A stretch of 64,000 nucleotides of DNA from a virus: positions 38,421-102,420 of IMG/VR virus record IMGVR_UViG_3300028840_002150; one strand, given 5' to 3'. Below, in pieces: positions 3,666 through 64,000 of the stretch (its first letter is position 1; every line of letters begins with the position of its first letter). The notes below the pieces were generated by a model that worked only from the letters and a program-made list of their open reading frames with translations, searched no databases and had not been told where the DNA came from. The position numbers and the translations under genes are program-made.

Positions 3666-3926
3666 ATGAATTACGGGGATGTGATTTGCGATCTTCACGA
3701 CGGGCTTTCGCTTCCGGATGGTGCAACGCTGGTCAAGTCGTTTAAGGTGCGATCATCGGGCGGTCCGGAGTTTATCCGGGCAACGTTGCGCGACCAATGC
3801 GTTACGGACCACTACACCAACAAGACGGTGGTCGTCATCGGGGAAGCCGATAACGGAAACCTGATTTGCGCGGCATCTTACGACGCGTGTTCGTTGCATT
3901 TTTTTGAAATCGCGGGGCTGACGTAA
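3666..3926 (+). CDS. hypothetical protein
   Basis: GGAG RBS; TAATG coupling with next gene. Confidence 0.5.
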   Translation: MNYGDVICDLHDGLSLPDGATLVKSFKVRSSGGPEFIRATLRDQCVTDHYTNKTVVVIGEADNGNLICAASYDACSLHFFEIAGLT

Positions 3927-15992: not shown

Positions 15993-16502
15993 ATGGAGCG
16001 AAAGCGTGGGTACGGGCAAGCGGAACCGACGGTCGGCAAGCCGGTGGAGCTGCCGCAGCCAGCCGGGCAACGATGCGAGCCGCAGTTGGATCCGGGCGAG
16101 TGGGGCATTCTATTACAGCGGCGCAGAACGGACTCGGAGCAATGGCGGGAATGCCGGTGGTTTAGCCTGGAGGAAATCGCGGATGCCCTGTGGGAACAAG
16201 CGGCGCGGGCGTTTCAGGTGTTGGAAAGCGACTACGTACAGCCGATTAAGCCGATCCCCTGGACCGACTGCCTGTGCTCCGAAGTCGTCTGCCTGGATCC
16301 GGACGCAGAGTATCCGCCGGTAGCTGACACGCTGGAACGCGCGGAGGGCGAAAGCCAGTTCGATTACGAGGACCGGCTAGTGCGGCATTTTCACGGTGAG
16401 GATGCCTGTCTTAACCGAACAGATAACGGGGCACCGTGGGCCATGCCATGCACGAAGAAGCGGGGCCATGAGGGACCGTGTAAGTTCGAGGGTTACGCAT
16501 GA
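15993..16502 (+). CDS. hypothetical protein
   Basis: ATG directly after an operator palindrome (15976-15992); C-terminal C..C..H..C. Confidence 0.5.
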   Translation: MERKRGYGQAEPTVGKPVELPQPAGQRCEPQLDPGEWGILLQRRRTDSEQWRECRWFSLEEIADALWEQAARAFQVLESDYVQPIKPIPWTDCLCSEVVCLDPDAEYPPVADTLERAEGESQFDYEDRLVRHFHGEDACLNRTDNGAPWAMPCTKKRGHEGPCKFEGYA

Positions 16503-52300: not shown

Positions 52301-52709
52301 ACGGCAAGAGGCCATGGCCCAACAAGCGGACCGGTCGGATATTCTACGGGCCGAACAAACCGGGCTCCGCGGAGACCAGGAAACAGCCCGGCAGTTCTTC
52401 CGCGAGCAAGCACGGACCGCCGGGTTTGACGAGTTCATCGGCGGAACCGCAGAAGAACAGGCGGACATTTCCCTGGAGCGGTCCGTTCAGCGTGAATTGA
52501 ACGCCAAGATCAAGCAGGAGATGGAAGTCAAGGTCACCGTAGAATCGGAGGAAGAAGCGGTGGTCACCGAAGTGATGAATCAGGTCAACGCGGAAATGGA
52601 TCGGCAAACGGCAAGGATTCGCCAAATCATCAACGATCGGTGGACGCAATCAAAAGAGGCCATCGCGAAGCTTAAAGACGACGATTTAGCCGGTCGCCTT
52701 TCAAGCTAG
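49383..52709 (+). CDS. tape measure protein
   Basis: 1108 aa; Ala/Gln-rich helical; hydrophobic Gly/Ala segment; follows chaperones. Confidence 0.8.
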   Translation: MATEYDLIYRIGVEHSEQGKQALKEFAAEVVGAQERITTAADAIAKQLRKASQAMRKPASGMPPSAAQQPLPAGLTSPGAQRRATDAGSTAETERTADRQRGMRARIALAEREAAAELDAVRKTVRGYTQGEQEKTRAREKGGQSRQPTAPVQPASQPKPAGPIFAGGAVSDPRTAAEFRQAVKTFEQGYAAQQGAAPPQERPVPSPPPPARPTAPQSRPAAAGGEQPSRRAQTAAAEAERDKTARRDAGMQQRVKLAAQEAAREIAEIGKVVEAYKRGEQQKAQAKQQTRQSQQPAGRTPQAPPPPQPAPRPQSQQRSSTQAAASQYARQQAQMTQARQQGAQQRAQIAEREADGEVESRQEVVDAHRQASRQTSQDAANNARQQQQHLQSLQSEYTGMKAQLKGYKDQSREAFLGGLTAAMQLSRGFVALGLSSEESTEKMMRGLVKMQGIVDSVTGSVQGIYQVTKAIDSVTEMMRLRRQASALAARVAQQASVAETAALQAEAAAAGQATTAHAALNAQRSMGSTAASAGITSNAIAGGAASRAAAAPVTRSATESASRAVGSGAAGAGGGVAATGGAGLGATVLLGAGAAASIGAAIASGLSTFGQAQRYGTGGGAEQGSVADRIATAEANTLAKGLRLVGDENSKLRQAIREMPSILRYMTFGAAGRFVRESESLASSQELNERLSEQDASLKANQERNRRQQEAENQFNAEIRAMEDRRRQQREQLQDQTFAATDPRMQNLRDQQTLGAEWMFRQQTDMIGLQQGQDDEALRRGQLQVNRLEQNQRQVQTEMQLRPMQSRLDRIQRNLEAAKAETDRLEQERQKLSTSIDPKDWERLKDVNQQLQQQDQRRVDLSQQRLGLEQQIAEVNKQANQQNLQALQQQLQTSKQIEASAKAAIESAAERFGRMDKGQQRDILRAKGRLDELGDAALAPAERERWERFQTTLKSGGELSESEMKAREQLRRKRQEAMAQQADRSDILRAEQTGLRGDQETARQFFREQARTAGFDEFIGGTAEEQADISLERSVQRELNAKIKQEMEVKVTVESEEEAVVTEVMNQVNAEMDRQTARIRQIINDRWTQSKEAIAKLKDDDLAGRLSS

Positions 52710-53365
52710 GTACCTTCGGAGTATCTTCGTATATCATCCTCGCATCCGGAAACGAATCTTTCGCGAAAATTGGAATCGGGCCAAGTTTGTATTGCTTCCT
52801 TCAGTAGCGAAATTGATTCGTTGCGATTTGCTGGCGTGTAAATGCGGCGAGCTTTGCGAGCGAGCGATTCGGCGAGAATTCGTCTGGCGTATACGTGGTC
52901 CGGAGAATCGGAAACCGCTGCCCTCGCTTTGGCGATTGCCGTATCGTATTGGTCCCGTGACATGTAGACGTGGGCCAATACGGCTTTAGCGAACGCCGAG
53001 GGTTCGAGGGACTCGGCGCGGCTTGCGTCTGATTCCGCGTCGTCGAGACGCTTGGAAATGATGTACGTCATGGCGCGGTGGCACAACCAGTCTCCGTTGT
53101 TCGGTTCCAACCGAATCGCTTCACTCCCGTCCCGTATCGCGGACTGATGGTCTCCCGAAAGGGCCTTGCATGACCCCCGCAACGCCCACGCTTTCGCGCA
53201 CGCCGGATCCACCCGGATTACGCGGTCGAAACATGCGATGGCTAGGTCGTCATCTCCAGCCTTGCGCGCCGCTTCCCCCCGCTCCATATCCGCCGATGTG
53301 TCCGGCTTTCCCGAGCATCCGGCCAGCATCAAACCCACCATTCCGATAGCCCAAACTCCACGCAT
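52706..53365 (-). CDS. TPR-repeat lipoprotein (moron)
   Basis: Lipobox LAGC after hydrophobic stretch; several TPR units; GGGAG RBS. Confidence 0.8.
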   Translation of the reverse strand: MRGVWAIGMVGLMLAGCSGKPDTSADMERGEAARKAGDDDLAIACFDRVIRVDPACAKAWALRGSCKALSGDHQSAIRDGSEAIRLEPNNGDWLCHRAMTYIISKRLDDAESDASRAESLEPSAFAKAVLAHVYMSRDQYDTAIAKARAAVSDSPDHVYARRILAESLARKARRIYTPANRNESISLLKEAIQTWPDSNFRERFVSGCEDDIRRYSEGT

Positions 53366-53460
53366 TGCCCACACTCCCCTTAGATCGGAGTTTCGCTTGC
53401 CCGCCATCATTATGGGCTGGAGCTAAGTGAACTCGCAAGCTGAACAAATGTACCCCCCCC

Positions 53461-53679
53461 CTAATCGCCATCCCGCTTTTTTTGTTGACGTTTGGCGGCA
53501 CGAAGAAGGACGGACCGGGCCCAGGCGGCCAGGTTGCTCCCGGCTACGGATTTTACAAGGCAATACTCACTCGGAGTCAGCCGCACAAACACCCTTTTGG
53601 TTTGCCGCTCTTCTGGCGGAAGCTGAGGCCTTCCAGTACGCGGTTTGTTCTGCGAATCGTCGCCCATTTTGAAACTCAT
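53461..53679 (-). CDS. small ribbon-helix-helix-like DNA-binding protein
   Basis: GRP.LP.EER.TKRVFVRLTPSEY...LAAWARSVLL; divergent from the replication operon. Confidence 0.6.
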   Translation of the reverse strand: MSFKMGDDSQNKPRTGRPQLPPEERQTKRVFVRLTPSEYCLVKSVAGSNLAAWARSVLLRAAKRQQKKRDGD

Positions 53680-53783
53680 GGTTTTTGTTGTTGGTAGCTA
53701 AAAAGCGTCCAATAAACTTCTACACGCGGCGAATTACTGGTAGCTCGCAAGATTTCCCGAACCCCATTTTAACGGAGGCTACC

Positions 53784-54263
53784 ATGAAAGTCGATCAATC
53801 CATCCAAGAGTACGCCTCGATCCGGGTCGCCCTGGACGAGGCGGAGGCCCGGCTCCAGCAACGGGAGCAGGCCGTCCAGCGGGCCGAAGAACGGGCCACA
53901 AAAGCCAGGGAGCGGCTACGCGATGCCGAGGCCCGCTACCGCGCCCTGCAAACCAAGCTGCTGGACGCCATGTGCCGGCTGGACCCGGAAACGGTTCAGA
54001 TCGCCGGGGCCCGCAAGTTGCTGAAGCTGAAGCGGGACATTCCCGGTTTGGACAACGCCCGGCATTGCATGTGCCGCGGCTCGGAGTTTCTGACGCTCGG
54101 CATGGTCGGTGACCGCTATCTGACCGTCAGCATGGCCGGCAAGGCGGTGGTCATCGGACCGGAGGAAGCGGACGTGTACCGGCCCGCCTACGCGGCGGCC
54201 ATCCATTCGCTAATGTCCAAGGGCTTTGATCCGCCGAAATCATGGGAGGGCGAGGACGAATGA
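53784..54263 (+). CDS. coiled-coil hypothetical protein
   Basis: GGAGG RBS. Confidence 0.6.
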   Translation: MKVDQSIQEYASIRVALDEAEARLQQREQAVQRAEERATKARERLRDAEARYRALQTKLLDAMCRLDPETVQIAGARKLLKLKRDIPGLDNARHCMCRGSEFLTLGMVGDRYLTVSMAGKAVVIGPEEADVYRPAYAAAIHSLMSKGFDPPKSWEGEDE

Positions 54264-54502
54264 ACGCGGGCCGTCTACGATTCACGGATCTGGTCGCGGC
54301 CCTCCGTGCAACCCGAGCGGGCGAAAGCCGGGCGTATTACGTCCTGGCCGCCCGCTACTACCTGGGGGCGGATCGGCTGGAGGAATTGCGGGCCCATGCC
54401 GATCCGGTGGGTCGGATCATCACCAACCGCTACGGCGAAGAAAGGCGAATGCCGCCGGTGTTATCGAACGGTCAAGTGGAGCAAATTATCCGGGACCGCT
54501 GA
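54260..54502 (+). CDS. hypothetical protein
   Basis: GAGGA RBS; ATGA overlap. Confidence 0.5.
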   Translation: MNAGRLRFTDLVAALRATRAGESRAYYVLAARYYLGADRLEELRAHADPVGRIITNRYGEERRMPPVLSNGQVEQIIRDR

Positions 54503-54532
54503 TCCGGGGTTGCTTTTTCGGGGTGTTGGGGT

Positions 54533-54549
54533 GATATTGTCGCAATATC
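54533..54549. promoter_or_regulatory. perfect operator palindrome
   Basis: GATATT-GTCGC-AATATC just upstream of the RimI-like RBS. Confidence 0.7.
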
Positions 54550-54566
54550 GGCGAAAGGAGACGACC

Positions 54567-55055
54567 GTGAAAACAATCGAGCGACTCGACTCTGCGGTTC
54601 ACGTTAGCTGGATGATTCGGGCGGATTATCCCGCGGTGCTTGCAATCGAGCGGGCATGTTTTGATGAGCCGTGGACGGAAGATGAATTGGTTCGCTGTTT
54701 GCGAGCCAGGAATCAAATCGGCATGGTAGCCCGACACGGCGAGCGCATTTTGGGCTACATGGTTTACGCCGCGATGCAAAAAGAGCTGCGGGTGCTTAAC
54801 TTTGCGGTTCATGCGGAGTTCCGGCGCCGCGGGGTCGGCCGGGCTATGGCTGACAAATTGCGGGCGAAGCTATCACCGTCACGCCGCCCGAGGCTGAAGC
54901 TGAAGGTCCGGGAAACCAATCTGGACGCGCAGTTGTTCTGGAGGGCCATGGGATACCGCGCGGTCAAGATTATCCGCAACCCGTGGCCGGACCTGGACGA
55001 ACACCAGTATTTGTTCCGGTACGCTTTACCCAAAATGCAGACGGCGGGCCAATAA
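54567..55055 (+). CDS. rimI: RimI-like GNAT acetyltransferase
   Basis: V.WMIR.D...VL.IE...F..PW, LNFAVH..RRRGVG, L.VRETNL.AQLF..MGY. Confidence 0.75.
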   Translation: MKTIERLDSAVHVSWMIRADYPAVLAIERACFDEPWTEDELVRCLRARNQIGMVARHGERILGYMVYAAMQKELRVLNFAVHAEFRRRGVGRAMADKLRAKLSPSRRPRLKLKVRETNLDAQLFWRAMGYRAVKIIRNPWPDLDEHQYLFRYALPKMQTAGQ

Positions 55056-55153
55056 AAAACCGCCCAACGGGGTACAACGCCCGCGGGGCGGCTCGCCAAA
55101 CCGGGCGCACCGACCGCGCCTAGCCAAGGGGATATGTACCACATTTCCCGATT

Positions 55154-55213
55154 TACCGCAATAGGTACCGCGATAGGCACAGCTATTGACACCCGGATAT
55201 TTTCGGGTCTAAT
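55154..55213 (+). promoter_or_regulatory. three 12-bp direct repeats overlapping TTGACA upstream of dnaB
   Basis: TACCGCAATAGG / TACCGCGATAGG / CACAGCTATTGA; TTGACA at 55186. Confidence 0.45.
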
Positions 55214-55243
55214 TGTGCGCTCGCCGAACCCTCGAGGACCGAC

Positions 55244-56728
55244 ATGGCGCCACAAACGCAAGACCGGCGGCCGACCGGGCGGCAACAGCCCGCCGAGTTA
55301 AACCGTCAGATGCCCTACGATTTGGACGCCGAGCAAGCGGTGCTCGGCTCCATCGTGCTGATGCCGGACGTGCTCGATGATTTGGGCACGATGCTGGAGC
55401 CGGCAGACTTTTTCGACACGGCCCACCAAACGCTGTACGCGGAATTGCGGGCCATCTACGACGGCGGCGGGCGGATTGACCCGACGCTGCTTGTCAATCG
55501 GTTGAAGACCGCCGGGCAATTCGAGGCCGTTGGCGGCGCGGCATATCTCTACAAAATTTTTGAATCGGTGCCCAACGCGGCCCATGCGGTCTATTACGGC
55601 CGCATCGTGCGGGAAGCGGCCAACCTGCGGAACCTGATCCAGGCCGGCACCGAAATCGTCCGGGACGCCTACGAGCAAACAACCCCTTCCGGTGAGCAGA
55701 TTGTCGAGGCCGAGAAGCGGGTGATGGGGGTTGCGGATCGGCAATCCGCGCTGGACCACTCCGTGCGCGGCGTGCGGGAAGTGTTGATCGAGGCGATGGA
55801 CCGCATCGAGCAGCGAATGCAGGGGCTCGGGGATTTGGGGATGCAGACCGGCATCCGGGCGGTAGATGACGTAGTGGGCGGGCTACGGCCCGGAGAATTG
55901 ACCATCCTCGCCGCGCGGCCCAGCCAGGGAAAGTCCGCGCTGGCCGTCGGCATCGCCGCGGAAAACGCGGTCCGCCAGCAGAAGACGGTTCTTTTTGTCA
56001 CTCAGGAGATGCTATCTATCGAGTTGGCGGACCGGGTGCTTTCGGCAGAAGCGCAGGTCAACCTGTTCAATATCCGAAATGGGCGGCTGCGGCAAGACGA
56101 GCTATCGCGAATTGTGGCTGCCTCAGGCCGCATCTCCGAGGCCAAGCTTCTCCTGGACGATCAACTGGTCAATGCCGAGCAAGTAGCGTCAGTGGCTCGC
56201 AGGGTGCGCCGTAAGGCGGGCGGCTTGGACCTGCTGATCGTGGACTACCTGCAACTGATGCCGCCCATTGACGGGCGGGACAACCGGGAACAGCAGGTAG
56301 CCAAAAACAGCCGCACGCTGAAACGGTTGGCCCAGGAGTTGAAAATCCCGGTGCTCTGCCTTGCGCAACTGAACCGGGAAGCCGACAACCAGGGCGTCCG
56401 GCCGAGGTTGTCTCACTTGCGGGAATCCGGCTCTATCGAGCAGGACGCCGACGTGGTGTGGTTTGTTTGGCGGCCCTACGAGCAATCGGCCATGAACCTG
56501 GAAAGCGGGGAGACGCCCGGCGTAGAAATCCTGGAAGACGGAACCCACGCTGAAGAAGCCAAGATTATCGTGGCCAAGCACCGCAACGGGCCCTGCGGGG
56601 AAGCCGATGTGCATTGGCTGAAACAGACCGCAAGATTCGTGGATCGGCGCGTCAATTCGGACGTATCGGATGAATGGTATCCGAGCGGGCCTGATGCGGC
56701 GGCGGGAGAAAGGGGAGACGAATTTTGA
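55244..56728 (+). CDS. dnaB: replicative DNA helicase
   Basis: AEQAVLGS, ILAARPSQGKS, IVDYLQL, LAQLNR, LRESGSIEQDAD, IVAKHRNGP. Confidence 0.95.
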   Translation: MAPQTQDRRPTGRQQPAELNRQMPYDLDAEQAVLGSIVLMPDVLDDLGTMLEPADFFDTAHQTLYAELRAIYDGGGRIDPTLLVNRLKTAGQFEAVGGAAYLYKIFESVPNAAHAVYYGRIVREAANLRNLIQAGTEIVRDAYEQTTPSGEQIVEAEKRVMGVADRQSALDHSVRGVREVLIEAMDRIEQRMQGLGDLGMQTGIRAVDDVVGGLRPGELTILAARPSQGKSALAVGIAAENAVRQQKTVLFVTQEMLSIELADRVLSAEAQVNLFNIRNGRLRQDELSRIVAASGRISEAKLLLDDQLVNAEQVASVARRVRRKAGGLDLLIVDYLQLMPPIDGRDNREQQVAKNSRTLKRLAQELKIPVLCLAQLNREADNQGVRPRLSHLRESGSIEQDADVVWFVWRPYEQSAMNLESGETPGVEILEDGTHAEEAKIIVAKHRNGPCGEADVHWLKQTARFVDRRVNSDVSDEWYPSGPDAAAGERGDEF

Positions 56729-57756
56729 ACCGACAGCAAAGCCTTCCTTTTGCCGAAGCAGAAGGGACGCACGCGGATCGAAAAGCGATGTTGCTTTCCG
56801 CTTTGAACCGGTTTTGTAGCCGGGACTTGCACGCCAAGACGTTCGTACTTCGGGTGTTCTGTGTGACAAGCGGCGGCATTTCTGGGGAGCTGCGCAAGAC
56901 ACATCGGGAAATCGCGGACTGCAGCGAATTCGGCTTGTGTTGCGGCATTACGAAGGCCAAGCAAACGATCCGCAAGGTCTATGAGTTGGGGTTCGTGACA
57001 ATCGATGAGCACAGGTACAAGACAGGTGGACAAGATGCCAACGAGTACCGCATAGACTGGGATGGCGTGAAGCGGCTACTTGCAAACAACGCGCCGCCCC
57101 CCGGTAAAGCGGGCGCGTCGCGCCTACCCCCAGTCGCGTCGCGCCTACCCCCAGTCGCCACGCGACAGCCCTATAAGGAATACCTAACCTCTTCTGTACC
57201 TTCTATACCGGAACCGGTACCGGAAGACCGGACCGGAACCGACGTTTATCCAGGAAGGGGGGAAGACCCGGTATGGACCGATCCGTGGCTTGACCTGCCG
57301 GTACTCGTCCAAGCACGAGAGCAGGTTATCACACCGATGGGTCCGACAATCAGCGGCTCCGTACTGCGTGCGATCCAAAGCGCGGATCTGAAGCCAGCCT
57401 CGTTGGTCCGGTGGTTCAGGCGGCAACTCGACCACCCGGCTCCGGTGCTTGCCGGTACGGAGGCTCACTTGCTTTTGGCTTTGGCGGCGGCCGTTTTCGT
57501 GGTCGAATCGAAAGACGTGCGAACGTCGCCGGTTCGATGGTTCAATTCCATCGTGTCTCGGCGGGACTGGCGGAAGGTTCTGCATCGCATCGACACGGCG
57601 GAGAATGTGATGCAAGTGCCGGAAATTCGGCAACTTGCCGGATTGACACCCAAAGCATTTTCTTGCCATAATGCCGATATTCCGCCAATATCAGCCACCG
57701 ACGAGCGAACAACGGGTAGACAACCAACACCCGTAACCCAAGGAGGAGTATCATGA
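56725..57756 (+). CDS. putative replication initiator
   Basis: N-terminal winged HTH ending NEYRIDW; internal direct repeats; next to dnaB. Confidence 0.6.
   Translation: MNRQQSLPFAEAEGTHADRKAMLLSALNRFCSRDLHAKTFVLRVFCVTSGGISGELRKTHREIADCSEFGLCCGITKAKQTIRKVYELGFVTIDEHRYKTGGQDANEYRIDWDGVKRLLANNAPPPGKAGASRLPPVASRLPPVATRQPYKEYLTSSVPSIPEPVPEDRTGTDVYPGRGEDPVWTDPWLDLPVLVQAREQVITPMGPTISGSVLRAIQSADLKPASLVRWFRRQLDHPAPVLAGTEAHLLLALAAAVFVVESKDVRTSPVRWFNSIVSRRDWRKVLHRIDTAENVMQVPEIRQLAGLTPKAFSCHNADIPPISATDERTTGRQPTPVTQGGVS
57115..57177 (+). repeat. 21-bp iteron-like repeats (putative origin)
   Basis: GCGTCGCGCCTACCCCCAGTC twice plus a degenerate third copy, inside the initiator gene. Confidence 0.6.
57676..57713 (+). 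promoter_or_regulatory. early-type operator/promoter
   Basis: Perfect GATATT-CCGCC-AATATC, N12, GCGAACA; C/A-rich leader; AGGAGG. Confidence 0.7.
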
Positions 57757-58061
57757 GCTTTGGCTGGTACGCTCAAAAACGGTGCAGCAAGTGTCGGGCA
57801 AGGAAGTTGCTTGCCGAATTTACACGGTGCGATCGATACGCCGACGGCCACGAATCTTGGTGCAAGGCGTGCAAGAGACAGCACCGCAAAAATCGGTACC
57901 GGTATAACCCGACGCACCGGGACGCGGAAAACTACGCAGACAAAGTGCTCCGACAACGCCGCTACATTGAAAGTCGGTTGTCGGCATTCGACGCAACGGA
58001 GCACGAGGACGAAGTGTACTTTGCCGCAGCGGAGGCTGCGTGCTGGGTGGAGGTGGATTGA
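57753..58061 (+). CDS. Zn-finger protein (endonuclease VII-like N-terminal finger)
   Basis: KRCSKC...F.......DG..SWCKAC. Confidence 0.65.
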   Translation: MSFGWYAQKRCSKCRARKLLAEFTRCDRYADGHESWCKACKRQHRKNRYRYNPTHRDAENYADKVLRQRRYIESRLSAFDATEHEDEVYFAAAEAACWVEVD

Positions 58062-58069
58062 ATGACACG

Positions 58070-58152
58070 CGGGGCGAGCGGCTCGAAGAATCGGTTGGAC
58101 CGATCCTGTCAAACCGGGCTGGCTTACCGGGGTTCGTGGCCCCGGCGCCCCA
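58070..58152 (+). ncRNA. tRNA-like element 1
   Basis: GGGGCG/CGCCCC acceptor; CCGGGG-TTCGTGG-CCCCGG T-arm; ~10-bp anticodon-position arm. Confidence 0.45.
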
Positions 58153-58253
58153 CTTACCGGGAAACGTCCCTGGTAACAGGTAGTTTAGGCATATGAAACC
58201 TGGCGCGATGACAAGCGCGAATTATCCCAAGCCCGTGGCGGTGTGAGGCCGCC

Positions 58254-58521
58254 ATTGCAACAGGATGGAACGCGATGTACCCCGTGCAAGACCTTTCGGC
58301 CGCTTATCCCATAACGCGGCGCTCAGTGACCACGACTTTCGGTGGGCGACCGGCCAGTTGGAGGCTGGTTAGCAGTCAAACGAGAAAGGTGCGTGCCGTG
58401 GACCGACATCCCAGACAACACCCAAGCATCGGCGGGTGGGGAGACGCGAGAGACGGCGGGCCGGCGGGACGCTGCCGGATAGCCAAGTACATCGAGCGGG
58501 TTCGAGGCCCGCGGTTGCAAT
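58254..58521 (+). ncRNA. tRNA-like domain enclosing a ~206-nt structured insert
   Basis: ATTGCAAC/GTTGCAAT; CGATGTAC/GTACATCG; GCGGG-TTCGAGG-CCCGC T-arm. Confidence 0.55.
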
Positions 58522-58588
58522 TCGGCGGCTTACGCAGATGGGCCGTCGGCTACTACTTTTTGCTCGCCGTTCGTTGCGGCGGGCGTTT

Positions 58589-58672
58589 GTGTGAGTGGTG
58601 AAACGGTATCACTCCGGGTTAGACGCATAAAAGTCTAGCTCGGCGTTTCGGGTTCGAATCCCGGCTCACGCT
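58589..58672 (+). tRNA. atypical tRNA or tRNA mimic with 11-bp anticodon arm; identity unassignable
   Basis: GTGTGAG/CTCACGC acceptor; GTGA-AACGGTA-TCAC D-arm; TCGGG-TTCGAAT-CCCGG T-arm; no encoded CCA. Confidence 0.65.
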
Positions 58673-58733
58673 TTTACTTTTTGGGTAGCCCAGGCCAAAG
58701 CGGCGTTAGCCGTGTAGGTAGGCCACGGGCGGC

Positions 58734-59186
58734 ATGCTCTACCGGGCATGCCGCCCGCCTGTACGCAACCGAAAGCCGCTGGTCATGGCTCGATTATCAA
58801 CCGCAACTCGCCGCATGTACGCCGACTTCATGGCGGAGTTCCCGTACTGTATGCGGTGCGGATACATGCCGGACCGGGAATGGCGCGGCTGGATGTGGAA
58901 CCGATTGGACAACGCCCATATTCTCGGCGGGTGTTGCCGCACGCATGACCGCAGAAATCTATTGCGGCTATGCGACGGGTGCCACCGGTCGGAACGGGCC
59001 CAGGTAGTGATAGAGCCGGGCCTATACGTGCCGAAGTTGACATTGGCCGGCAAGCTGTGGCTAAAGGCCGAATATGACCCGGACCATTGGGACCCGGATT
59101 ACTTGCGTCGTATCGGGGTCAAGCAATGGTTGCCGCATCCAATTCGTCCAAAGCCGTTGCCAGAATTGGCATGGGGAAGGTTATGA
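58734..59186 (+). CDS. HNH-like nuclease
   Basis: CMRCG...AHI....R.HD..NLLRLCDGCH. Confidence 0.65.
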   Translation: MLYRACRPPVRNRKPLVMARLSTATRRMYADFMAEFPYCMRCGYMPDREWRGWMWNRLDNAHILGGCCRTHDRRNLLRLCDGCHRSERAQVVIEPGLYVPKLTLAGKLWLKAEYDPDHWDPDYLRRIGVKQWLPHPIRPKPLPELAWGRL

Positions 59187-59395
59187 CACCGGACCAAATC
59201 TGGCGGCAACTTGTGGCGAAGCAACCCAGGCTATCCGATGAGTCGTCTACCGTCACAATCGACGGGCGGAATTTGCGCTCGATAATTCGGCAGGCGTGGG
59301 AGCACGGCGAACGTGAAGGAAGGCGGCGGGAAAGATCGAATCAGAGGACGGAGTTCGATTTTTTAGGCGATTTACTGAGGGGTGGTAATGGCTGA
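59183..59395 (+). CDS. hypothetical protein
   Basis: ATGA coupling. Confidence 0.55.
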   Translation: MTPDQIWRQLVAKQPRLSDESSTVTIDGRNLRSIIRQAWEHGEREGRRRERSNQRTEFDFLGDLLRGGNG

Positions 59396-60434
59396 AACAA
59401 CGAATATCGCTTGGACGGATGTGACGTTTAATCCATGGATTGGATGCTCTCACGCGAAGATACCTGGGGCCGACAAGCCACATCCTGGGTGCCTACATTG
59501 CTATGCGTGTGCGCAGTCTGCCCGGTTTGGCGTGAAGTGGGGGCCGAATGGTACGCGTCGCAAAACATCGGATGCGTACTGGCGGAAGCCGCTCAAGTGG
59601 AATCGGGACGAACTCAAGAGGCAGGGCAGGCGAATCCAGGCCCCGAAGCTGCGCCGCCCCCGCGTGTTCCCGTCCCTCATGGATCCGTTCGAGGACCGGG
59701 ATGGTCCGATACTGGATCATCACGGCGATAGGTTGTGCTTGATTCATGGAGAAGGTCACGCGGCCGGCTACGACGGCTACCGATACGTGGTTGCGCGTGG
59801 ACGATCGTCCTACGCGTGCATGGCTGAAATGGACCACCTTCGCCGCGACTTCTTCGCGCTGATCGACCAGACGCCGAACCTGGATTGGATTCTACTGACG
59901 AAGAGGCCGCAGAACATTCGGCGGATGTGGCCGAGTCGTTCTGAAGAGATCGAATTTGGCGCGTACGCGAAAGCGTTTCCACTACACGAAGCGCATCGCG
60001 CTGATTGCAGCGACTTCTATCGCCCGAACGTCTGGATCTTGTATTCCGCCTCCGACCAGGAATCCCTGGAATCCGGGTTGCCGCACCTGCTGGCTTGCCG
60101 GGATCTAGCTCCCGTTATCGGGCTCAGCTTGGAGCCGCTTATCGCGCCGATTGCGTTTGACGACGAATACCTGCAGGACGTGCTAAGGCGTTTAATTGAT
60201 TGGGTAATCATTGGCGGTGAGAGCGGACCAAAAGCCCGCCCGTGCCCTTGGCATACCTACATTCGCCCTATCGTTCAACAGTGCCAAGCGGCTAACGTGC
60301 CAGTGTTCGTCAAGCAGTTGGGAAGCCACACGGCGAAGGGGCTCGACTGGCAACATCCCAAAGGCGCGGATCCGTCAGAATGGCCCGAAGACCTGCGAGT
60401 TCAGCAATACCCCTTTCAAGGAGCGACGATATGA
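59388..60434 (+). CDS. DUF5131 (phage Gp37/Gp68) family protein
   Basis: T.IAWTD.TFNPWIGC...GC.HCYA; LLTKRP; S.EPL; IDWVIIGGESG; VPVFVKQLG. Confidence 0.9.
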   Translation: MAETTNIAWTDVTFNPWIGCSHAKIPGADKPHPGCLHCYACAQSARFGVKWGPNGTRRKTSDAYWRKPLKWNRDELKRQGRRIQAPKLRRPRVFPSLMDPFEDRDGPILDHHGDRLCLIHGEGHAAGYDGYRYVVARGRSSYACMAEMDHLRRDFFALIDQTPNLDWILLTKRPQNIRRMWPSRSEEIEFGAYAKAFPLHEAHRADCSDFYRPNVWILYSASDQESLESGLPHLLACRDLAPVIGLSLEPLIAPIAFDDEYLQDVLRRLIDWVIIGGESGPKARPCPWHTYIRPIVQQCQAANVPVFVKQLGSHTAKGLDWQHPKGADPSEWPEDLRVQQYPFQGATI

Positions 60435-60988
60435 CAGAGTTTCATGTTGGTTACGTTGGCAAGCGGCGGGACGGGAAGCGGGCGCATTGCATCGAAACAA
60501 GCACCTGCGCGGCACAATGGGCGACGCCGCACATAACGAAAACATTCTGGACCACGCTGAACGGCAAGTACGCCAAACACGGGCCGGACAGTATTTGCGA
60601 CATCATCGGCCCGTGGAAAGAACCGGAACCGGATCCGCCGCCGGTGGACTGGTCGAAGCCGCTTCAGACGACCGAAGGCGTACCGGCCACGCTGGTGTAC
60701 ACCGACGAGCACAATTACGTGATTTATCGTCGTCTTCTCGTCATTCACTCGACAATAGAAGGCGATAAAAGCGGTTGGTTCGAGGAAGACGGAAAGCACA
60801 GCCTGTCGCGTTACAACATCGTCAACGTCCCCGAGCCCGAACCGCAGCGATTGGTGCGGTATTTCAATATGTACCCTGGTTGCGTCGGTTTCGTTTACGA
60901 CTGTCGCAAGGACGCGGACAACGAGGCCGTTGAGGGTCGCATCGCCTGTAAACGCGTAGAGTTTACCGCGGGCGAGTGGGACGACTGA
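60431..60988 (+). CDS. hypothetical protein with duplicated phage domain
   Basis: RDGKRA...WTT.NG and DWSKPLQTT.G..A...WF..DG; AAGGAG RBS. Confidence 0.6.
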   Translation: MTEFHVGYVGKRRDGKRAHCIETSTCAAQWATPHITKTFWTTLNGKYAKHGPDSICDIIGPWKEPEPDPPPVDWSKPLQTTEGVPATLVYTDEHNYVIYRRLLVIHSTIEGDKSGWFEEDGKHSLSRYNIVNVPEPEPQRLVRYFNMYPGCVGFVYDCRKDADNEAVEGRIACKRVEFTAGEWDD

Positions 60989-61003
60989 TAAGGGACAATA
61001 ACC

Positions 61004-61207
61004 ATGACGGATTACGAAGACATCGTGCCCCAATACGAAAGCGAAATCAGGAGAGATCCGCGCACCGGGGCACAGGTGGTAACGGTGTGGCGGGACGGGG
61101 TGGGGGTGTCGAGGCGGCTGGACGGGCGCCCAATTGAGCCTGACCGGTCAGACGACGAAGACGAAAGGAGACGCAGGCATGAGCGGATTAAGCAAAGAGC
61201 AGATTGA
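61004..61207 (+). CDS. hypothetical protein
   Basis: AAGGGA RBS. Confidence 0.45.
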   Translation: MTDYEDIVPQYESEIRRDPRTGAQVVTVWRDGVGVSRRLDGRPIEPDRSDDEDERRRRHERIKQRAD

Positions 61208-61478
61208 AAGGATGTTGCGGGACGCGGACGTAATGAAATCGCTTGCAAAAAGAGGTTACGTTGTGCGAGCCGCAAAAAATGCAGAAGACGTTGTTCGCCA
61301 CGTCAAGGCATTAGCGGCCGAAGTGGAGCGGTTGCGGCAAGCATGTTCGATGGCCGTAAGAAAATTAAGCTGCGTGTCAATTGAGCGAATGGTAAACTGC
61401 GTTCCCGAAATTTTACGCGAGTGCGACCGGCAGGCGATAGAAATACTGCTGGAGGCATTGCACGGCAAGGAAGAATAA
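61179..61478 (+). CDS. hypothetical protein (Ead/Ea22-like coiled coil)
   Basis: AAGGAG RBS; V.AL.AEVERLR. Confidence 0.5.
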   Translation: MSGLSKEQIERMLRDADVMKSLAKRGYVVRAAKNAEDVVRHVKALAAEVERLRQACSMAVRKLSCVSIERMVNCVPEILRECDRQAIEILLEALHGKEE

Positions 61479-61520
61479 ATTATCAGCGAGACCACAAGCT
61501 AAGTTGGCAGTAGGGGCGAC

Positions 61521-61787
61521 ATGTTTAAGATCGGCAGTACGGTCTACAACCTGGACACCTTGGAGTCCGGCGAATTACGCAACGTCACGCGCAAAAACGC
61601 GGTGGTGCGGCTTCCGACAGGACGCCGCGCGTATTGGGCACCGGACCGCGTGGCCACCGGCCTACACAAGTGCTCCGGGTGCGGTAAGCCGATTCGACCG
61701 GGCGGCTGCCGGCAGGCGGGAACTGGGCGGTTTGCCGTGCCGGTGTGCGCGGAGTGTGACCTGCAGGACCGCTTGCAACCGGACTAA
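61521..61787 (+). CDS. Zn-finger hypothetical protein
   Basis: CSGCG...CAEC. Confidence 0.5.
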   Translation: MFKIGSTVYNLDTLESGELRNVTRKNAVVRLPTGRRAYWAPDRVATGLHKCSGCGKPIRPGGCRQAGTGRFAVPVCAECDLQDRLQPD

Positions 61788-61804
61788 GGAAAGGCCCCGG
61801 ACCC

Positions 61805-62017
61805 ATGCGGGCGGACCCCAAGCAACAGCAGCTTTTCGACGCCAGGCCGGAAAAACCGGCTATCCAGCAACCGCTCGCTGTTTATTGCCGGGTTTGCGGC
61901 CGGCGGCTTAGTCATCCCAAATCTAAGGCCGCCGGGGTAGGTCCCGTCTGTAAGCGGCCCGCTCGCACGAAAAAACCGGCACCCGCCCAGCCCCCGCTGA
62001 TACTTGCGGAAAACTAG
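61805..62017 (+). CDS. DUF6011-like Zn-finger protein
   Basis: CRVCGRRLSHPKSKAAGVGPVC. Confidence 0.65.
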   Translation: MRADPKQQQLFDARPEKPAIQQPLAVYCRVCGRRLSHPKSKAAGVGPVCKRPARTKKPAPAQPPLILAEN

Positions 62018-62037
62018 CCGCTACGGTAGAGATCCCC
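62004..62037 (+). promoter_or_regulatory. putative late promoter
   Basis: TTGCGG-N17-TAGAGATCCCC. Confidence 0.5.
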
Positions 62038-62067
62038 GAGAATATCTACACTCAGGGAGCGCCGTGG

Positions 62068-62817
62068 ATGGCCTGCGTTTTCAAGTACGGGAGCTATACC
62101 CACGATGCGGGCACGGTTGGATTGTCCGCATCGCGGGAAGCACTGCGGGACGAGCTGGACCAAATGTGGGCGCACAAGATCCGTTGGGCGCTGGATATTA
62201 CCCTCATTAGCCAGCTATCCGAGGCCGCGGCACGCTCGGCGATAAAAACCAAGCAGGACGCGCTGATCGCCGCCTACGCCGTAGAAAACGTGGACGCGGT
62301 GCTGTACCAACCGGGCGGAAGCACGGCCACGCACCATTCCTTGCTTACGGCCAATACATGGGGCGGCGTGCGAGTTATTCAGCCGCCGAGCTTCACGCAG
62401 TATCGCGGCGCGGAGGGCGTGACCTACGCCACGGCGCAAGCGGTTATCGAGGCGGTTGTGCCGATTAGCGGCTACAACCAAATTTCCAGCTTCACTGAAT
62501 CGGTCAGCTTTGATTGCGACCCGGTAATCGCTCACATTCCCACGAAGATCGGGTTGCCGGTCCGGCAGCGCCTTCGCCAACATCCGGTTTTTCGCGTTCG
62601 CCAAACAGGATCCGCCAAGGGCCGGGACTACACCCCCAGCATCCCGCCGCCGATCTGGCCGGGAGATACTGTCAAGCCAATCGCCCAAAAAACCATCGGG
62701 CATCCGAAACGGATGGGCGACAAACTCTACGACTTCCCCGTCTCGTGGACCTACGAGTTCGAAATGCAATACCAGCCGAGCGGCCTACCGAACCGCTACG
62801 GCGTGACCTACCCGTAA
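62068..62817 (+). CDS. putative distal tail/tail-tip protein
   Basis: Beta-rich; F.YGSY.H N-terminus; resumes the structural operon. Confidence 0.55.
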   Translation: MACVFKYGSYTHDAGTVGLSASREALRDELDQMWAHKIRWALDITLISQLSEAAARSAIKTKQDALIAAYAVENVDAVLYQPGGSTATHHSLLTANTWGGVRVIQPPSFTQYRGAEGVTYATAQAVIEAVVPISGYNQISSFTESVSFDCDPVIAHIPTKIGLPVRQRLRQHPVFRVRQTGSAKGRDYTPSIPPPIWPGDTVKPIAQKTIGHPKRMGDKLYDFPVSWTYEFEMQYQPSGLPNRYGVTYP

Positions 62818-62826
62818 GGATCCGAC

Positions 62827-64000
62827 ATGGCTACCCGCTACTGGATCGGCGACGCCCAGAAAGTCCCCCAGGTTGACACGCTCACGCCGGGCAGTCTAAG
62901 TATCGGGGAAACGCTCACCGTCACGATCAACGGCAAGACCAGCACTCACACGATTACCAGCACCACAATGGCGACCGAGGTGGACGCGTTTGTCGCTACG
63001 TTGGCCGCAATTACGACGATCGAGGAATTCGACGAAATTACTTGGGCGGCCAATTCCGATAGCTCGGCCATTACCGCCACGGGGCCAAGCGACGGAGCGC
63101 CGATCACGATTACCACGTCGGCCAGCGGCGGCGGGGTCACCTTCAGCAAGTCCACCACGACCAGCCCCAGCGGGCCGCACCATTTCGACGAAGCGGACAA
63201 CTGGAGCGGCGGCGCGGTCCCCGTCGATGACGACACCATCGTCTTCGAATCCAACGACGTGGATTGCAAGTACGGTCTGAGCAACGCCAGCACCACGCCG
63301 GCAGAAATCCGGATCGACGCCAGTTATACCGGCAAGATCGGATTGCCGCAGGAAAACGCCAACGGCTACGCGGAATATCGGGAGCGGTATCTGACGCTCG
63401 GCACCGACGGCGACGGCAGCGCAAGTTCGGTAACGGTGCACATCGGCCGCGGCGACGGCAACGGTTCCCGCCGCATCATGCTCAACACGGGCGACAAGCA
63501 GACCAACCTCACCATTCACAACACGGACCGCTCTGAGGACGGCACGACTCCGGCTGTAGTCTGGAAAGGCACCAACGCCAGCAACGCGGTCCAGATTGTC
63601 AAAGGCTCGCTTGGAATCGCCTACTATGCCGGCGAATCGGCCACGGTGCTGACGCTGAAACAAGGGTTCGTGTCCAGTCGAAATTCGGACGCGGAAGTCC
63701 ACGTCGGCGCCGGCGTGACGCTGGGCACCATCGACAAAACTGGCGGCGAGGCCCGTGTCTACTGCGCTACCACTACCGCGGCCTACAACCGCGGCGGCAA
63801 GTTGTGGCTGGAGGGAACGGGAACGCACCCACTGCTGCACGTTACGGGCGGCACCTGCTACGCGAACACCACCGGCACGCTGGGCGATTACGGTTCCATC
63901 ACCGGCTTGACGCAGGCCGATCCCGGCGTGGTTACGTCCGCCGCACACGGGCTATCGTCCGGGGACAAAGTGGTGCTGTCCGCCGTGGTCGGAATGACCG
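62827..64000 (+). CDS. virion tail protein, truncated by window end
   Basis: Read directly: MATRYWIGDAQKVPQVDTLT...NWSGGAVPVDDD; ends in ITGLTQADPGVVTSAAHGLSSGDKV (FCCH-like). Confidence 0.7.
   Translation, partial: MATRYWIGDAQKVPQVDTLTPGSLSIGETLTVTINGKTSTHTITSTTMATEVDAFVATLAAITTIEEFDEITWAANSDSSAITATGPSDGAPITITTSASGGGVTFSKSTTTSPSGPHHFDEADNWSGGAVPVDDDTIVFESNDVDCKYGLSNASTTPAEIRIDASYTGKIGLPQENANGYAEYRERYLTLGTDGDGSASSVTVHIGRGDGNGSRRIMLNTGDKQTNLTIHNTDRSEDGTTPAVVWKGTNASNAVQIVKGSLGIAYYAGESATVLTLKQGFVSSRNSDAEVHVGAGVTLGTIDKTGGEARVYCATTTAAYNRGGKLWLEGTGTHPLLHVTGGTCYANTTGTLGDYGSITGLTQADPGVVTSAAHGLSSGDKVVLSAVVGMT

What the first reader, a model, noticed from the sequence alone, without database searches (positions are those of the whole stretch)
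58062..58682. ~610-nt structured RNA region built from tRNA-like domains with altered anticodon arms
Seen: three acceptor-stem plus T-arm units in a gap without a credible ORF. (1) 58070-58152 has a ~10-bp arm TCGGTTGGAC/GTCAAACCGG. (2) 58254-58521 has an unpaired D-region and an 8-bp helix CGATGTAC/GTACATCG enclosing ~206 nt of nested helices (ACCTTTC/GAAAGGT, GCCGC/GCGGC, ACCGGCC/GGCTGGT, GCCGT/ACGGC, CACCC/GGGTG, CCGGC/GCCGG), a tmRNA-like topology without alanine identity. (3) 58589-58672 is a near-perfect cloverleaf with an extended anticodon arm. More hairpins fill 58153-58253, including a fourth T-arm-like TGGCGG-TGTGAGG-CCGCCA. The region lies downstream of the operator/promoter at 57676. 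Inference: a large ornate phage ncRNA (GOLLD- or ROOL-like class, or new) or an RNase P/Z-processed array of tRNA mimics acting as decoys or scaffolds.
Basis: partly seen in the sequence, partly recalled or inferred. Interest (0 to 1): 0.8.

Follow-up and report, generated by a model that had tools for sequence, protein, structure and literature searches.

The report
Tandem tRNA-derived RNA genes in phage
A gene-free 720-base stretch of an uncultured 102-kb phage holds one complete tRNA whose anticodon arm is lengthened by 13 bases, and beside it a 295-base folded RNA built on the same tRNA end-helix and T-arm. No relatives or RNA data exist, so what either RNA does is unproven.

Summary
Partly confirmed. 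The stretch 58062-58784 has no coding signal in any frame, and ORF 58275-58601 has no homologue.

- **Unit 3 (58589-58672)** is a real tRNA body (Rfam tRNA 41.2 bits). A 13-nt insert makes an 11-bp anticodon stem with an 8-nt loop and buries a UCU triplet.
- **Unit 2** is real but larger than drawn: 58241-58535 (295 nt), closed by a helix of about 20 bp. The + strand folds at z -2.45 and the - strand at +0.46; 36 random windows of this genome reach no lower than -1.9. Its outer 7 bp, T-arm, CGGCTYACGC block and TACTTTTTG trailer repeat those of unit 3, so the two look like tandem tRNA-derived paralogues.
- **Unit 1** is weak.

Four of the genome's seven T-arm-like hairpins lie here on one strand. 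Rfam gives no GOLLD, ROOL, tmRNA, YrlA or group I intron match. The phage encodes no Ro60, RtcB, RNA ligase, SmpB or CCA-adding enzyme.

No homologue of any unit was found, so covariation, transcription and function remain untested. My best reading (0.4) is that these are stable, tRNA-framed, non-decoding RNAs cut out by host tRNA-end enzymes. Earlier notes of this scan describe hairpin-interrupted tRNA-Arg(UCU) genes and tRNA-framed RNAs in other phages.

The parts
57643..57672 (+). Sigma-70-like promoter TTGACA-18-CATAAT with a TG extension; the likely start of the transcript that runs through the 102-aa gene into the RNA stretch.
   Evidence: 11 of 12 hexamer positions. A consensus match only; transcription is not shown.
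57753..58061 (+). 102-aa Cys-rich gene: a Zn-ribbon of the kind found at the N-terminus of phage endonuclease VII and HNH endonucleases.
   Evidence: Coding score +0.15. PHROG 1035 'endonuclease VII' at 7e-11 and related families. No Pfam hit.
58071..58151 (.). Unit 1: a GC-rich Y-shaped inverted-repeat element (end stem GGGGCG/CGCCCC, hairpin CCGGGG-TTCGTGG-CCCCGG, long hairpin). The tRNA-like reading is weak and the strand is uncertain.
Evidence: + strand -40.9 kcal/mol, z -1.1; - strand -49.4, z -4.4. No Rfam tRNA match at E<=10. The loop has T where a T-loop has A58.
58154..58218 (+). Three small hairpins between units 1 and 2.
   Evidence: the 58153-58253 fold has z -1.25, which is not distinguishable from chance.
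58236..58254 (+). It is mutually exclusive with the outer part of unit 2's end helix.
   Evidence: the same CCGCC and GTGTGAG bases pair with 58524-58535 in the longer fold.
58241..58535 (+). Unit 2 as redrawn: a 295-nt structured RNA. Its end helix of about 20 bp is GTGTGAG/CTTACGC + CCGCC/GGCGG + ATTGCAAC/GTTGCAAT. Then come an 11-nt unpaired D-like segment (58262-58272), helix CGATGTAC/GTACATCG (58273-80 with 58487-94) and a branched domain of about 206 nt. That domain includes a D-arm-like hairpin with loop AGTTGGA (58348-58370). The T-arm GCGGG-TTCGAGG-CCCGC lies at 58496-58512.
   Evidence: Helix list. + strand -132.1 kcal/mol, z -2.45 (2 of 200 shuffles); - strand z +0.46. 36 random 299-nt windows of the genome have mean z 0.03, minimum -1.9. 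Pair probabilities 0.95-1.0.
58522..58562 (+). Hairpin of 11 bp with 4 G-U pairs (58522-58549), followed by GCTACTACTTTTTG. It competes with unit 2's end helix and is a possible weak terminator or 3' trailer.
   Evidence: 58521-58590 has z -3.5. Repeat D5. Exact TACTTTTTG occurs only twice in the 64-kb window, both times here.
58562..58584 (+). Hairpin GCTCGCCGT-TCGTT-GCGGCGGGC followed by TTTGTGTG. It is terminator-like and also matches the T-arm pattern.
58589..58672 (+). Unit 3: a complete tRNA body with 7-bp acceptor, D-arm GTGA-AACGGTA-TCAC and T-arm TCGGG-TTCGAAT-CCCGG, plus U8, A14, G18 G19, G53-C61 and A58. A 13-nt insert (58621-58633) extends the anticodon stem to 11 bp with loop GCATAAAA. 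The UCU triplet (58634-58636) pairs with AGA of the insert.
   Evidence: RF00005 41.2 bits, E 7e-7. ARAGORN -i gives tRNA-Arg(tct) with a 13-nt intron. MFE z -4.8. Arm probability about 1.0.
58670..58683 (+). Trailer GCTTTTACTTTTTG directly after unit 3; the second copy of the trailer motif.
58726..58757 (+). Perfect 12-bp GC hairpin CGGGCGGCATGC/GCATGCCGCCCG inside a longer fold, just upstream of the likely true start of the next gene.
   Evidence: Repeat I5. The 58676-58790 fold has z -3.8.
58785..59186 (+). Downstream gene of unknown function. Its likely real start is the ATG at 58785, not 58734.
   Evidence: The only homologue, P0001, aligns from its residue 2 to query residue 20. No Pfam, PHROG or NCBIfam hit.

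Best explanation
The ORF-free stretch 58062-58784 is a small RNA-gene island in the early/replication region of an uncultured phage with direct terminal repeats.

Its core is a tandem pair of tRNA-derived genes on the + strand. Both share the same 7-bp end helix, a T-arm and a U-rich trailer.
- Unit 3 is a full tRNA body. Its anticodon arm is lengthened by 13 nt, so the only plausible anticodon (UCU) is locked in an 11-bp stem.
- Unit 2 (58241-58535) keeps a T-arm beside an end helix of about 20 bp. It carries a branched domain of about 220 nt where the D and anticodon arms would be.

Shown here: the structures, their strand specificity, their shared blocks, and the lack of coding potential.

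Inferred, not shown:
- Both are made on the transcript from the promoter at 57643.
- Host tRNA-end enzymes cut them out (RNase P and RNase Z or exonucleases), and RNase III may cut the 20-bp helix.
- They persist as stable tRNA-shaped RNAs that do not decode, using the tRNA frame for processing, stability or docking to a host tRNA-binding protein.

Unit 1 is a real inverted-repeat structure but probably not part of this design.
For: - No coding signal, and no homologue of the only sizeable ORF.
- Unit 3 passes the Rfam tRNA threshold despite the insert. All its stems are intact with four G-U pairs, and the 6 extra pairs continue the stem without a mismatch.
- An 11-bp anticodon stem cannot present an anticodon in the normal tRNA geometry (established tRNA structure).
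- Unit 2's fold is specific to the + strand and beyond all 36 control windows.
- Four of the genome's seven T-arm-like hairpins lie in 540 nt on one strand.
- Collinear shared blocks: GTGTGAG (8 copies in 205 kb of both strands, 2 here); CGGCTYACGC (only 2 copies in the genome, both here, each placed to pair with GTGTGAG); the T-arm core (13 of 15); and TACTTTTTG (only 2 in the window).
- The phage has no RtcB, RNA ligase or CCA-adding enzyme of its own, so nothing phage-encoded points to splicing.
- Precedents for stable phage RNAs of unknown function in tRNA regions: T4 RNAC and RNAD (PMC9697503).
Against: - No homologue of any unit was found, so there is no covariation test at all.
- There is no expression or end-mapping datum.
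- The thermodynamic signal for unit 2 is moderate (z about -2.4).
- The 8+8-bp nested geometry alone arises in about 1% of shuffles.
- A perfectly intact tRNA body in unit 3 fits a tRNA that still decodes after removal of the insert just as well.
- No partner protein is identified.
- The shared end helix could reflect a recent duplication rather than selection.
Confidence: 0.4

Rival explanations
1. Unit 3 is a working tRNA-Arg(UCU) gene with a 13-nt mini-intron. Host enzymes cut out the insert and rejoin the halves, giving the phage a reader for the rare AGA codon. Unit 2 would then be an unrelated or derived companion RNA.
For: - Removing 58621-58633 leaves a canonical 7-nt loop, UU-UCU-AG, with U33 and A37.
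- The tRNA body is flawless.
- The insert pairs with the anticodon, as introns do in spliced pre-tRNAs (established knowledge).
- Phage tRNAs with unexplained introns are published for Lak megaphages (PMC6784885).
- Earlier notes of this scan report hairpin-interrupted tRNA-Arg(UCU) genes in several phages (unchecked by me).
Against: - No bulge-helix-bulge motif: the arm is a continuous helix.
- An 11-bp stem is short for RNase III, and the required cut sites would leave a 3-nt 5' overhang, not the 2-nt 3' overhang of RNase III (my geometry columns).
- The insert lies before position 34, not after 37.
- The phage has no RtcB or RNA ligase.
- Position 20 is U and the discriminator is U, not the A20 and A/G73 of E. 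coli-type arginine identity (read from the sequence; identity rules from memory).
- AGA is only 4% of the phage's Arg codons, 73 uses.
- About six in ten random 20-nt loops would offer some U33/R37 register (my estimate).
Confidence: 0.2
2. The stretch is a decaying phage tRNA cluster. Unit 3 was inactivated by a quasi-palindromic insertion. Units 1 and 2 and the extra T-arm hairpins are pseudogene debris without function.
For: - Only one of four T-arm-bearing units scores as a tRNA.
- Two T-loops lack A58.
- Unit 1 has no strand-consistent tRNA fold.
- The flanks look like endonuclease-related genes, which often disrupt phage tRNA regions (general knowledge).
- There are no relatives to show conservation.
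Against: - Debris should carry stem mismatches. Unit 3 has none in 27 pairs. Unit 2 has a clean 20-bp end helix, a perfect 8-bp inner helix and a + strand-only fold beyond the genome background.
- A random 13-nt insert continues a stem for 6 pairs with probability of about 0.003 (my estimate).
Confidence: 0.2
3. Unit 2 is a cis-acting leader. Its end helix, the upstream hairpin (58236-58254) and the downstream hairpin plus U-tract (58522-58562) are alternative structures that set read-through into unit 3 and the next gene.
For: - Three mutually exclusive helices share the GGCGG/CCGCC and GTGTGAG/CTTACGC segments.
- The downstream hairpin has 4 G-U pairs, so it is + strand-specific, and it precedes one of only two T5 tracts.
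Against: - The U-tract starts 8 nt after the stem, which is poor terminator geometry.
- A second terminator-like hairpin follows regardless.
- No ligand or sensor motif matches Rfam.
- Alternative pairings are expected by chance once short GC repeats exist.
Confidence: 0.08
4. The whole stretch of about 610 nt is one large ornate RNA of the GOLLD or ROOL kind, or a new one.
For: - The whole + strand fold has z -3.0, against -0.5 for the - strand.
- Such RNAs occur in phages next to tRNAs (general knowledge).
Against: - No GOLLD or ROOL match at E<=10.
- The stretch resolves into units, each closed by its own end helix and followed by its own trailer or terminator-like hairpin.
- Long-range pairs change when 100 nt are added.
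- Unit 1 prefers the other strand.
Confidence: 0.05
5. Unit 2, or units 1 and 2 together, is a divergent or two-piece tmRNA that tags stalled proteins.
For: - The topology is that of a tmRNA tRNA-like domain: end helix, unpaired D-like segment, long helix, T-arm.
- Unit 1 begins GGGGCGA...GGCTCGAAG, which resembles tmRNA 5' ends (from memory).
- At an 80% threshold ARAGORN proposes a permuted tmRNA with tag ANYPKPVAV*, whose stop lies in a hairpin loop.
Against: - ARAGORN finds no tmRNA at default thresholds.
- No Rfam tmRNA family matches at E<=10.
- There is no G3-U70 pair in any candidate end helix (sequence).
- There is no SmpB gene.
- The low-threshold call uses a 5-bp acceptor and places the tag upstream of the 5' acceptor strand, which is not the order I recall for two-piece tmRNA genes.
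Confidence: 0.03

Closest known systems
Canonical bacterial and phage tRNA (Rfam RF00005)
   Same: Unit 3 has every arm and the universal tertiary nucleotides, and it scores 41.2 bits against a threshold of 29. Unit 2 keeps a T-arm next to its end helix.
   Different: Unit 3 has 20 nt where a 7-nt anticodon loop belongs, folded into 6 extra pairs and an 8-nt loop. Units 1 and 2 do not match the model at all.
'Enigmatic' introns in Lak megaphage tRNA genes (Devoto et al. 2019, PMC6784885)
   Same: Both are phage tRNA genes that are longer than normal because of an insert in the anticodon region, with no known removal route.
   Different: The Lak insert I read (tRNA-Tyr, Table S6) is 93 nt and lies after position 37. 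Here the insert is 13 nt before position 34, in a 60% GC phage with no similarity to Lak.
tmRNA tRNA-like domain
   Same: Same order of parts as unit 2's inner domain: acceptor-like helix, unpaired D-like segment, long helix leading to a large domain, T-arm, 3' acceptor strand.
   Different: No G3-U70, no credible tag frame, no pseudoknot ring, no Rfam or ARAGORN match, no SmpB gene. The end helix runs on to about 20 bp.
Phage T4 RNAC and RNAD (species 1 and 2 RNAs)
   Same: Stable small RNAs of unknown function that lie with the phage's tRNA genes (PMC9697503; their location and processing with the tRNAs are from my memory).
   Different: No sequences were compared here. The T4 RNAs are about 120-140 nt, and unit 2 is 295 nt.
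YrlA / bacterial Y RNA with Ro60 (Rfam RF02553)
   Same: A tRNA-like module joined to a long end helix.
   Different: YrlA is circularly permuted: the acceptor is capped and the end helix stands where the anticodon stem would be (from memory). In unit 2 the T-arm abuts the end helix as in a normal tRNA. There is no Rfam match and no TROVE gene.
GOLLD and ROOL large phage RNAs
   Same: Large ORF-free structured stretch in a phage, next to a tRNA.
   Different: No match to either Rfam model even at E<=10. The stretch is modular, not one fold.

Membership tests
tRNA (RF00005) | Covariance-model score at or above the 29-bit gathering threshold | tested here: met
   Unit 3 scores 41.2 bits. It was missed with default filters. 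Units 1 and 2 give no match at E<=10.
tRNA (RF00005) | 5-bp anticodon stem closed by a 7-nt loop that presents the anticodon | tested here: not met
   Unit 3 has 20 nt between the stem strands, folded as 6 more pairs plus an 8-nt loop.
tRNA (RF00005) | Conserved tertiary nucleotides: U8, A14, G18 G19, G53-C61, T54 Psi55 C56, A58 | tested here: met
   Read from the unit 3 sequence against the Rfam alignment. Unit 1's loop TTCGTGG and the 58565 hairpin's TTCGTTG lack A58.
tmRNA | Match to an Rfam tmRNA model, or an ARAGORN call at default thresholds | tested here: not met
   The only call is a permuted one at the 80% threshold.
tmRNA | G3-U70 alanine identity pair in the acceptor helix | tested here: not met
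   Unit 1 has G3-C70. Unit 2's inner helix has G3-C70 (or C3-G70 in the other register), and its outer helix has G3-C70 (sequence).
tmRNA | SmpB partner encoded by the phage (optional for a phage) | tested here: not met
   PF01668 is absent from the 102-kb genome. A host SmpB could serve.
GOLLD / ROOL | Match to the Rfam covariance model | tested here: not met
   No match at gathering or at E<=10.
YrlA / Y RNA | Rfam match, and a Ro60 (TROVE) gene nearby | tested here: not met
   No Rfam match. PF05731 is absent.
Archaeal/eukaryal-type spliced tRNA intron | Bulge-helix-bulge motif at the splice sites | tested here: not met
   The extended arm is an uninterrupted 11-bp helix.
Group I intron in a tRNA gene | Rfam group I intron match, and tRNA exons with a D-arm and anticodon stem | tested here: not met
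   No match at E<=10. Unit 2 has no D-arm. ARAGORN -i at its default threshold does not call it.
Hairpin-interrupted phage tRNA-Arg(UCU) (earlier notes of this scan, unpublished) | A UCU anticodon buried by an inserted hairpin in an otherwise canonical tRNA body | tested here: met
   AGA of the insert pairs with UCU. The differences are a 13-nt insert rather than 26-28 nt, and a position before rather than after the anticodon.
Phage T4 RNAC / RNAD | Sequence or structure similarity to the T4 RNAs | not tested
   No T4 sequence was fetched. blastn against the phage collection gave no match for unit 2.

The most novel reading that the evidence does not exclude
Unit 2 would be the first seen member of a class of large (about 300-nt) phage RNAs that mount a branched domain on a tRNA end-helix and T-arm frame. 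Unit 3 would be a masked tRNA-Arg(UCU) whose anticodon is released by an undescribed protein-driven cut-and-rejoin step in bacteria. The pair, born by duplication, would show how phages turn tRNA genes into new structured RNAs.
Probability: 0.15. Interest if true: 0.8.

Novelty: new variant of a known kind. Interest (0 to 1): 0.45.

Why it matters
Phage tRNA regions are usually annotated only for standard tRNAs. This case shows, in one locus, a tRNA body with a sealed anticodon and a 295-nt RNA that reuses the same end helix, T-arm and trailer.

If both are made and stable, they would be evidence that phages remodel tRNA genes into non-decoding RNAs, or into tRNAs that need an unknown maturation step. 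That bears on how phages deal with host tRNA-targeting defences and RNA-processing enzymes.

As it stands the case rests on one sequence. Its value is as a well-defined target for RNA mapping and for covariance-model mining of larger collections.

Tried and rejected
**Homologue searches, all empty or uninformative**
- blastn of 57700-59200 and of unit 2 against 50,697 phage records found nothing. Unit 3 hit only generic tRNA pieces.
- Four DNA patterns were tried.
  - Two in IMG/VR found nothing.
  - The third IMG/VR pattern gave one chance hit beside an integrase, L119.
  - The fourth, in 185,579 genomes, gave one hit, an intron-bearing tRNA-Gly of a Pacearchaeota MAG, L076.
- Phage relatives found through proteins were too distant. 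DnaB reaches at most 39% identity in IMG/VR and 42% in JGI metagenomes; TerL reaches at most 43%. The neighbouring genes gave nothing useful.
- Covariance models R1 (unit 3) and R2 (unit 2) found no like element in 570 kb of loci, nor in 47 whole viral records.

**Expression and population data**
- No RNA holder was listed for the stretch.
- Laying the two DNA holders showed identical contigs and no variants. They may be one data set.

**Readings rejected**
- ARAGORN's default call, tRNA-Arg(ccg) at 58578-58673, has a poor structure.
- ARAGORN's low-threshold calls were treated as noise: tRNA-Gly(gcc) at 58194-58520 with a 246-nt intron, tRNA-Pro, and a permuted tmRNA.
- The Twister-P5 match on the - strand of unit 1 scores 13.9 bits against a threshold of 37.6, at E 9.3.
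- Replication origin: there are no iterons or AT-rich tract.
- Mobile insertion (MITE): there is no second copy in the genome.
- The units are not alignable as wholes. Local alignments of the shared blocks are individually not significant, so the paralogy argument rests on rare-word counts.
- The T-arm-like hairpin at 57536 lies in a coding frame and is taken as chance.
Full report
**Setting.** The window is the last 64 kb of a 102,420-bp IMG/VR virus record with direct terminal repeats and about 60% G+C. The record comes from sediment and seawater metagenomes. Upstream of the finding lie a GNAT gene, a DnaB helicase (55244-56728) and a 343-aa gene. Then come a strong sigma-70-like promoter (57643-57672, 11 of 12 positions with TG) and a 102-aa Zn-ribbon gene. 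That gene is related to the N-terminal part of phage endonuclease VII and HNH proteins. Downstream lies a 150-aa ORF whose only homologue aligns from residue 20, so the gene probably starts at 58785. After it comes a DUF5131/gp37 gene. The ORF-free stretch is therefore 58062-58784, about 723 nt.

**Is it non-coding?** A codon-usage log-odds score trained on the phage's long genes is negative in all six frames from 58062 to about 58730, and positive in the flanking genes. ORF 58275-58601 scores -0.15 bits per codon. It has no Pfam hit and no homologue in the 5.8-billion-protein collection.

**Known RNA families.** Rfam at gathering thresholds reports nothing in the window. With permissive filters the only real match in 57300-59000 is tRNA at 58589-58672: 41.2 bits against a threshold of 29, with 18 nt where the model has 5. 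No tmRNA, GOLLD, ROOL, YrlA, group I intron or ribozyme match appears at E<=10. The Twister-P5 match on the - strand of unit 1 is noise (13.9 against 37.6 bits).

**Unit 3.**
Its default call (Arg-ccg, 96 nt) has a poor structure.
- The body is canonical: a 7-bp acceptor, a 4-bp D-stem with loop AACGGTA, and T-arm TCGGG-TTCGAAT-CCCGG. U8, A14, G18 G19, G53-C61 and A58 are all present.
- The anticodon stem CCGGG/CTCGG continues through TTAGAC/GTCTAG without a mismatch into the 8-nt loop GCATAAAA. The fold has z -4.8 and the arm has pair probability about 1.0.
- Only one way of deleting 13 contiguous bases leaves a canonical loop (UU-UCU-AG). In the gene that UCU is paired with AGA of the insert.
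- The helix has no bulges, so there is no bulge-helix-bulge motif. It is short for RNase III.
- The phage encodes no RtcB, RNA ligase of either Pfam family, or CCA-adding enzyme.
- AGA is the rarest Arg codon in the phage at 4%.
- So unit 3 is a real tRNA-shaped gene that cannot decode as transcribed. Whether the insert is removed is open.

**Unit 2, redrawn.**
- Folding a slightly larger window shows that the end helix runs on. CCGCC (58249-53) pairs with GGCGG (58524-28), and GTGTGAG (58241-47) pairs with CTTACGC (58529-35). Together with ATTGCAAC/GTTGCAAT this gives about 20 bp with two small bulges.
- For 58239-58537 the + strand MFE is -132.1 kcal/mol with z -2.45 (2 of 200 shuffles). The - strand gives -110.4 with z +0.46.
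- Thirty-six random 299-nt windows of the same genome have mean z 0.03, sd 1.07 and minimum -1.9.
- Nine G-U pairs, three of them in the end helix, explain the strand asymmetry.
- Inside helix 58273/58494 the fold has three arms. One is a hairpin whose 7-nt loop AGTTGGA reads like a tRNA D-loop (58348-58370).
- Taken alone, the nested 8+8-bp geometry beside a T-arm occurs in 1.1% of shuffles. The case therefore rests on the sum of features, not on any one.

**Units 2 and 3 share parts.** In the same order both carry four blocks:
- GTGTGAG;
- the T-arm core CGGGTTCGAnnCCCG (13 of 15);
- CGGCTYACGC;
- the trailer GCTnnTACTTTTTG.

GTGTGAG occurs 8 times in the 205 kb of both strands. CGGCTYACGC occurs only twice in the genome, both here, each placed to pair with a GTGTGAG. 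Exact TACTTTTTG occurs only twice in the window, both here. Whole-unit and local alignments are not significant by themselves. I read the rare-word pattern as tandem duplication of a tRNA-type gene followed by remodelling of the interior, or as selection for one shared end helix.

**T-arm clustering.** A strict pattern was used: a 5-bp stem closed by G-C, with loop TTCRNNN. It matches 7 times in the whole genome on both strands, against a mean of 3.4 in shuffles. Four of the matches lie at 58128, 58496, 58565 and 58648 on the + strand, where shuffles of the region give 0.01. A fifth nearby match, at 57536, sits in a coding frame. Two of the four (58128 and 58565) have T instead of A58 and may be plain GC hairpins.

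**Unit 1.**
- The end stem and the TTCGTGG hairpin exist.
- The segment has z -1.1 on the + strand and -4.4 on the - strand.
- Three G-U pairs of the 17-bp hairpin on the - strand become C-A mismatches on the + strand.
- I keep unit 1 as a real inverted-repeat element of uncertain strand, not as a tRNA mimic.

**Other hairpins.**
- 58522-58549 has 11 bp with four G-U pairs and is followed by the first TACTTTTTG. 58562-58584 is followed by TTTGTGTG. Both are + strand-specific and terminator-like.
- The first of these, and the hairpin at 58236-58254, compete with unit 2's end helix. This allows, but does not show, a switch.
- 58726-58757 is a perfect 12-bp GC hairpin just before the probable start of the next gene.

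**Search for relatives.**
- Nothing close exists in the collections I could reach: phage records, IMG/VR patterns and one genome-collection pattern.
- Protein-guided searches reach only 39-43% identity for DnaB and TerL.
- Models R1 and R2 find no like element in the fetched loci or in 47 whole viral records.
- The two DNA runs that hold the phage carry identical contigs.
- Covariation, the test that would matter most, could therefore not be run. No RNA holder is listed.

**Context from the literature and earlier notes.**
- Lak megaphages have tRNA genes with unexplained inserts; the one I read is 93 nt, after position 37 (PMC6784885).
- T4 RNAC and RNAD are still of unknown function (PMC9697503).
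- Earlier notes of this scan are unchecked AI notes. They describe several things in other phages:
  - tRNA-Arg(UCU) genes whose anticodon is buried by 26-28-nt hairpins;
  - tRNA-like RNAs with 17-19-bp end helices and inserted modules;
  - an early leader carrying tRNA-Arg(UCU) plus look-alikes.
- The present locus has the same flavour, but I could not test homology to any of them.

**Verdict.** Units 2 and 3 are real and tRNA-derived on the + strand, unit 1 is doubtful, and the stretch is modular rather than one GOLLD- or ROOL-like RNA.
- Best reading (0.4): stable, tRNA-framed, non-decoding RNAs cut out by host tRNA-end enzymes.
- Rivals: a spliced tRNA-Arg(UCU) (0.2), pseudogene debris (0.2), a cis-acting leader (0.08), one large RNA (0.05) and a tmRNA (0.03).
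- Novelty: a new variant of a known kind.
- Interest: 0.45, limited by the lack of any comparative or expression evidence.

Noticed in passing
L012:8163-9437 (IMGVR_UViG_3300044580_000104): A distant phage has a 1.27-kb ORF-free stretch after its DnaB and sigma-factor genes. It holds a tRNA-Met (54 bits), three T-arm-like hairpins and four copies of TTGCCCCCCTCAA-like motifs, possibly phage promoters. This is an analogous layout, not a homologue.
   Followed up: partly
L076:6986-7117 (CP061211.1, Pacearchaeota MAG): An archaeal tRNA-Gly(GCC) with a 60-nt intron shares an exact 22-nt T-arm/acceptor string with unit 3, and GCGTGAG against GTGTGAG at the 5' end. It is the only exact match in 596 Gb of genomes and is probably coincidence.
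   Followed up: partly
L119:8973-9042 (IMGVR_UViG_3300013413_000021): A 70-nt element with a tRNA-like acceptor and T-arm but no anticodon arm lies directly after a tyrosine-recombinase-like ORF and before a terminator. It is likely an attachment-site tRNA remnant or a tRNA-like RNA. ARAGORN does not call it.
   Followed up: no
G000:C1:18823-18913 (outside the window): A hairpin CCGGG-TTCGATT-CCCGG with a perfect T-loop-like sequence lies in the 91-nt gap between two convergent genes. It is probably a bidirectional terminator.
   Followed up: partly
window 58734-58785: The listed start of the downstream ORF (58734) lies inside a perfect 12-bp hairpin. The only homologue supports a start at 58785, and it lacks the CxxCH motif that made the protein look HNH-like.
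   Followed up: yes
window 57753-58061: The 102-aa protein is only the Zn-ribbon part of endonuclease VII/HNH-type PHROGs (profile positions 62-163 of 271). It may be a truncated homing-endonuclease remnant or a stand-alone DNA binder.
   Followed up: partly
window 50000-64000: The two public runs that hold the phage (sediment 2018, seawater 2021) give contigs of identical length (52,833) and identical coordinates. They may be one data set filed twice, so they are not independent occurrences.
   Followed up: no
window 10504-11859 and 16499-18361: Two N6/N4 DNA methylase genes flank the large terminase gene (12313-14412). A DUF4942 gene lies at 3926-4759.
   Followed up: no
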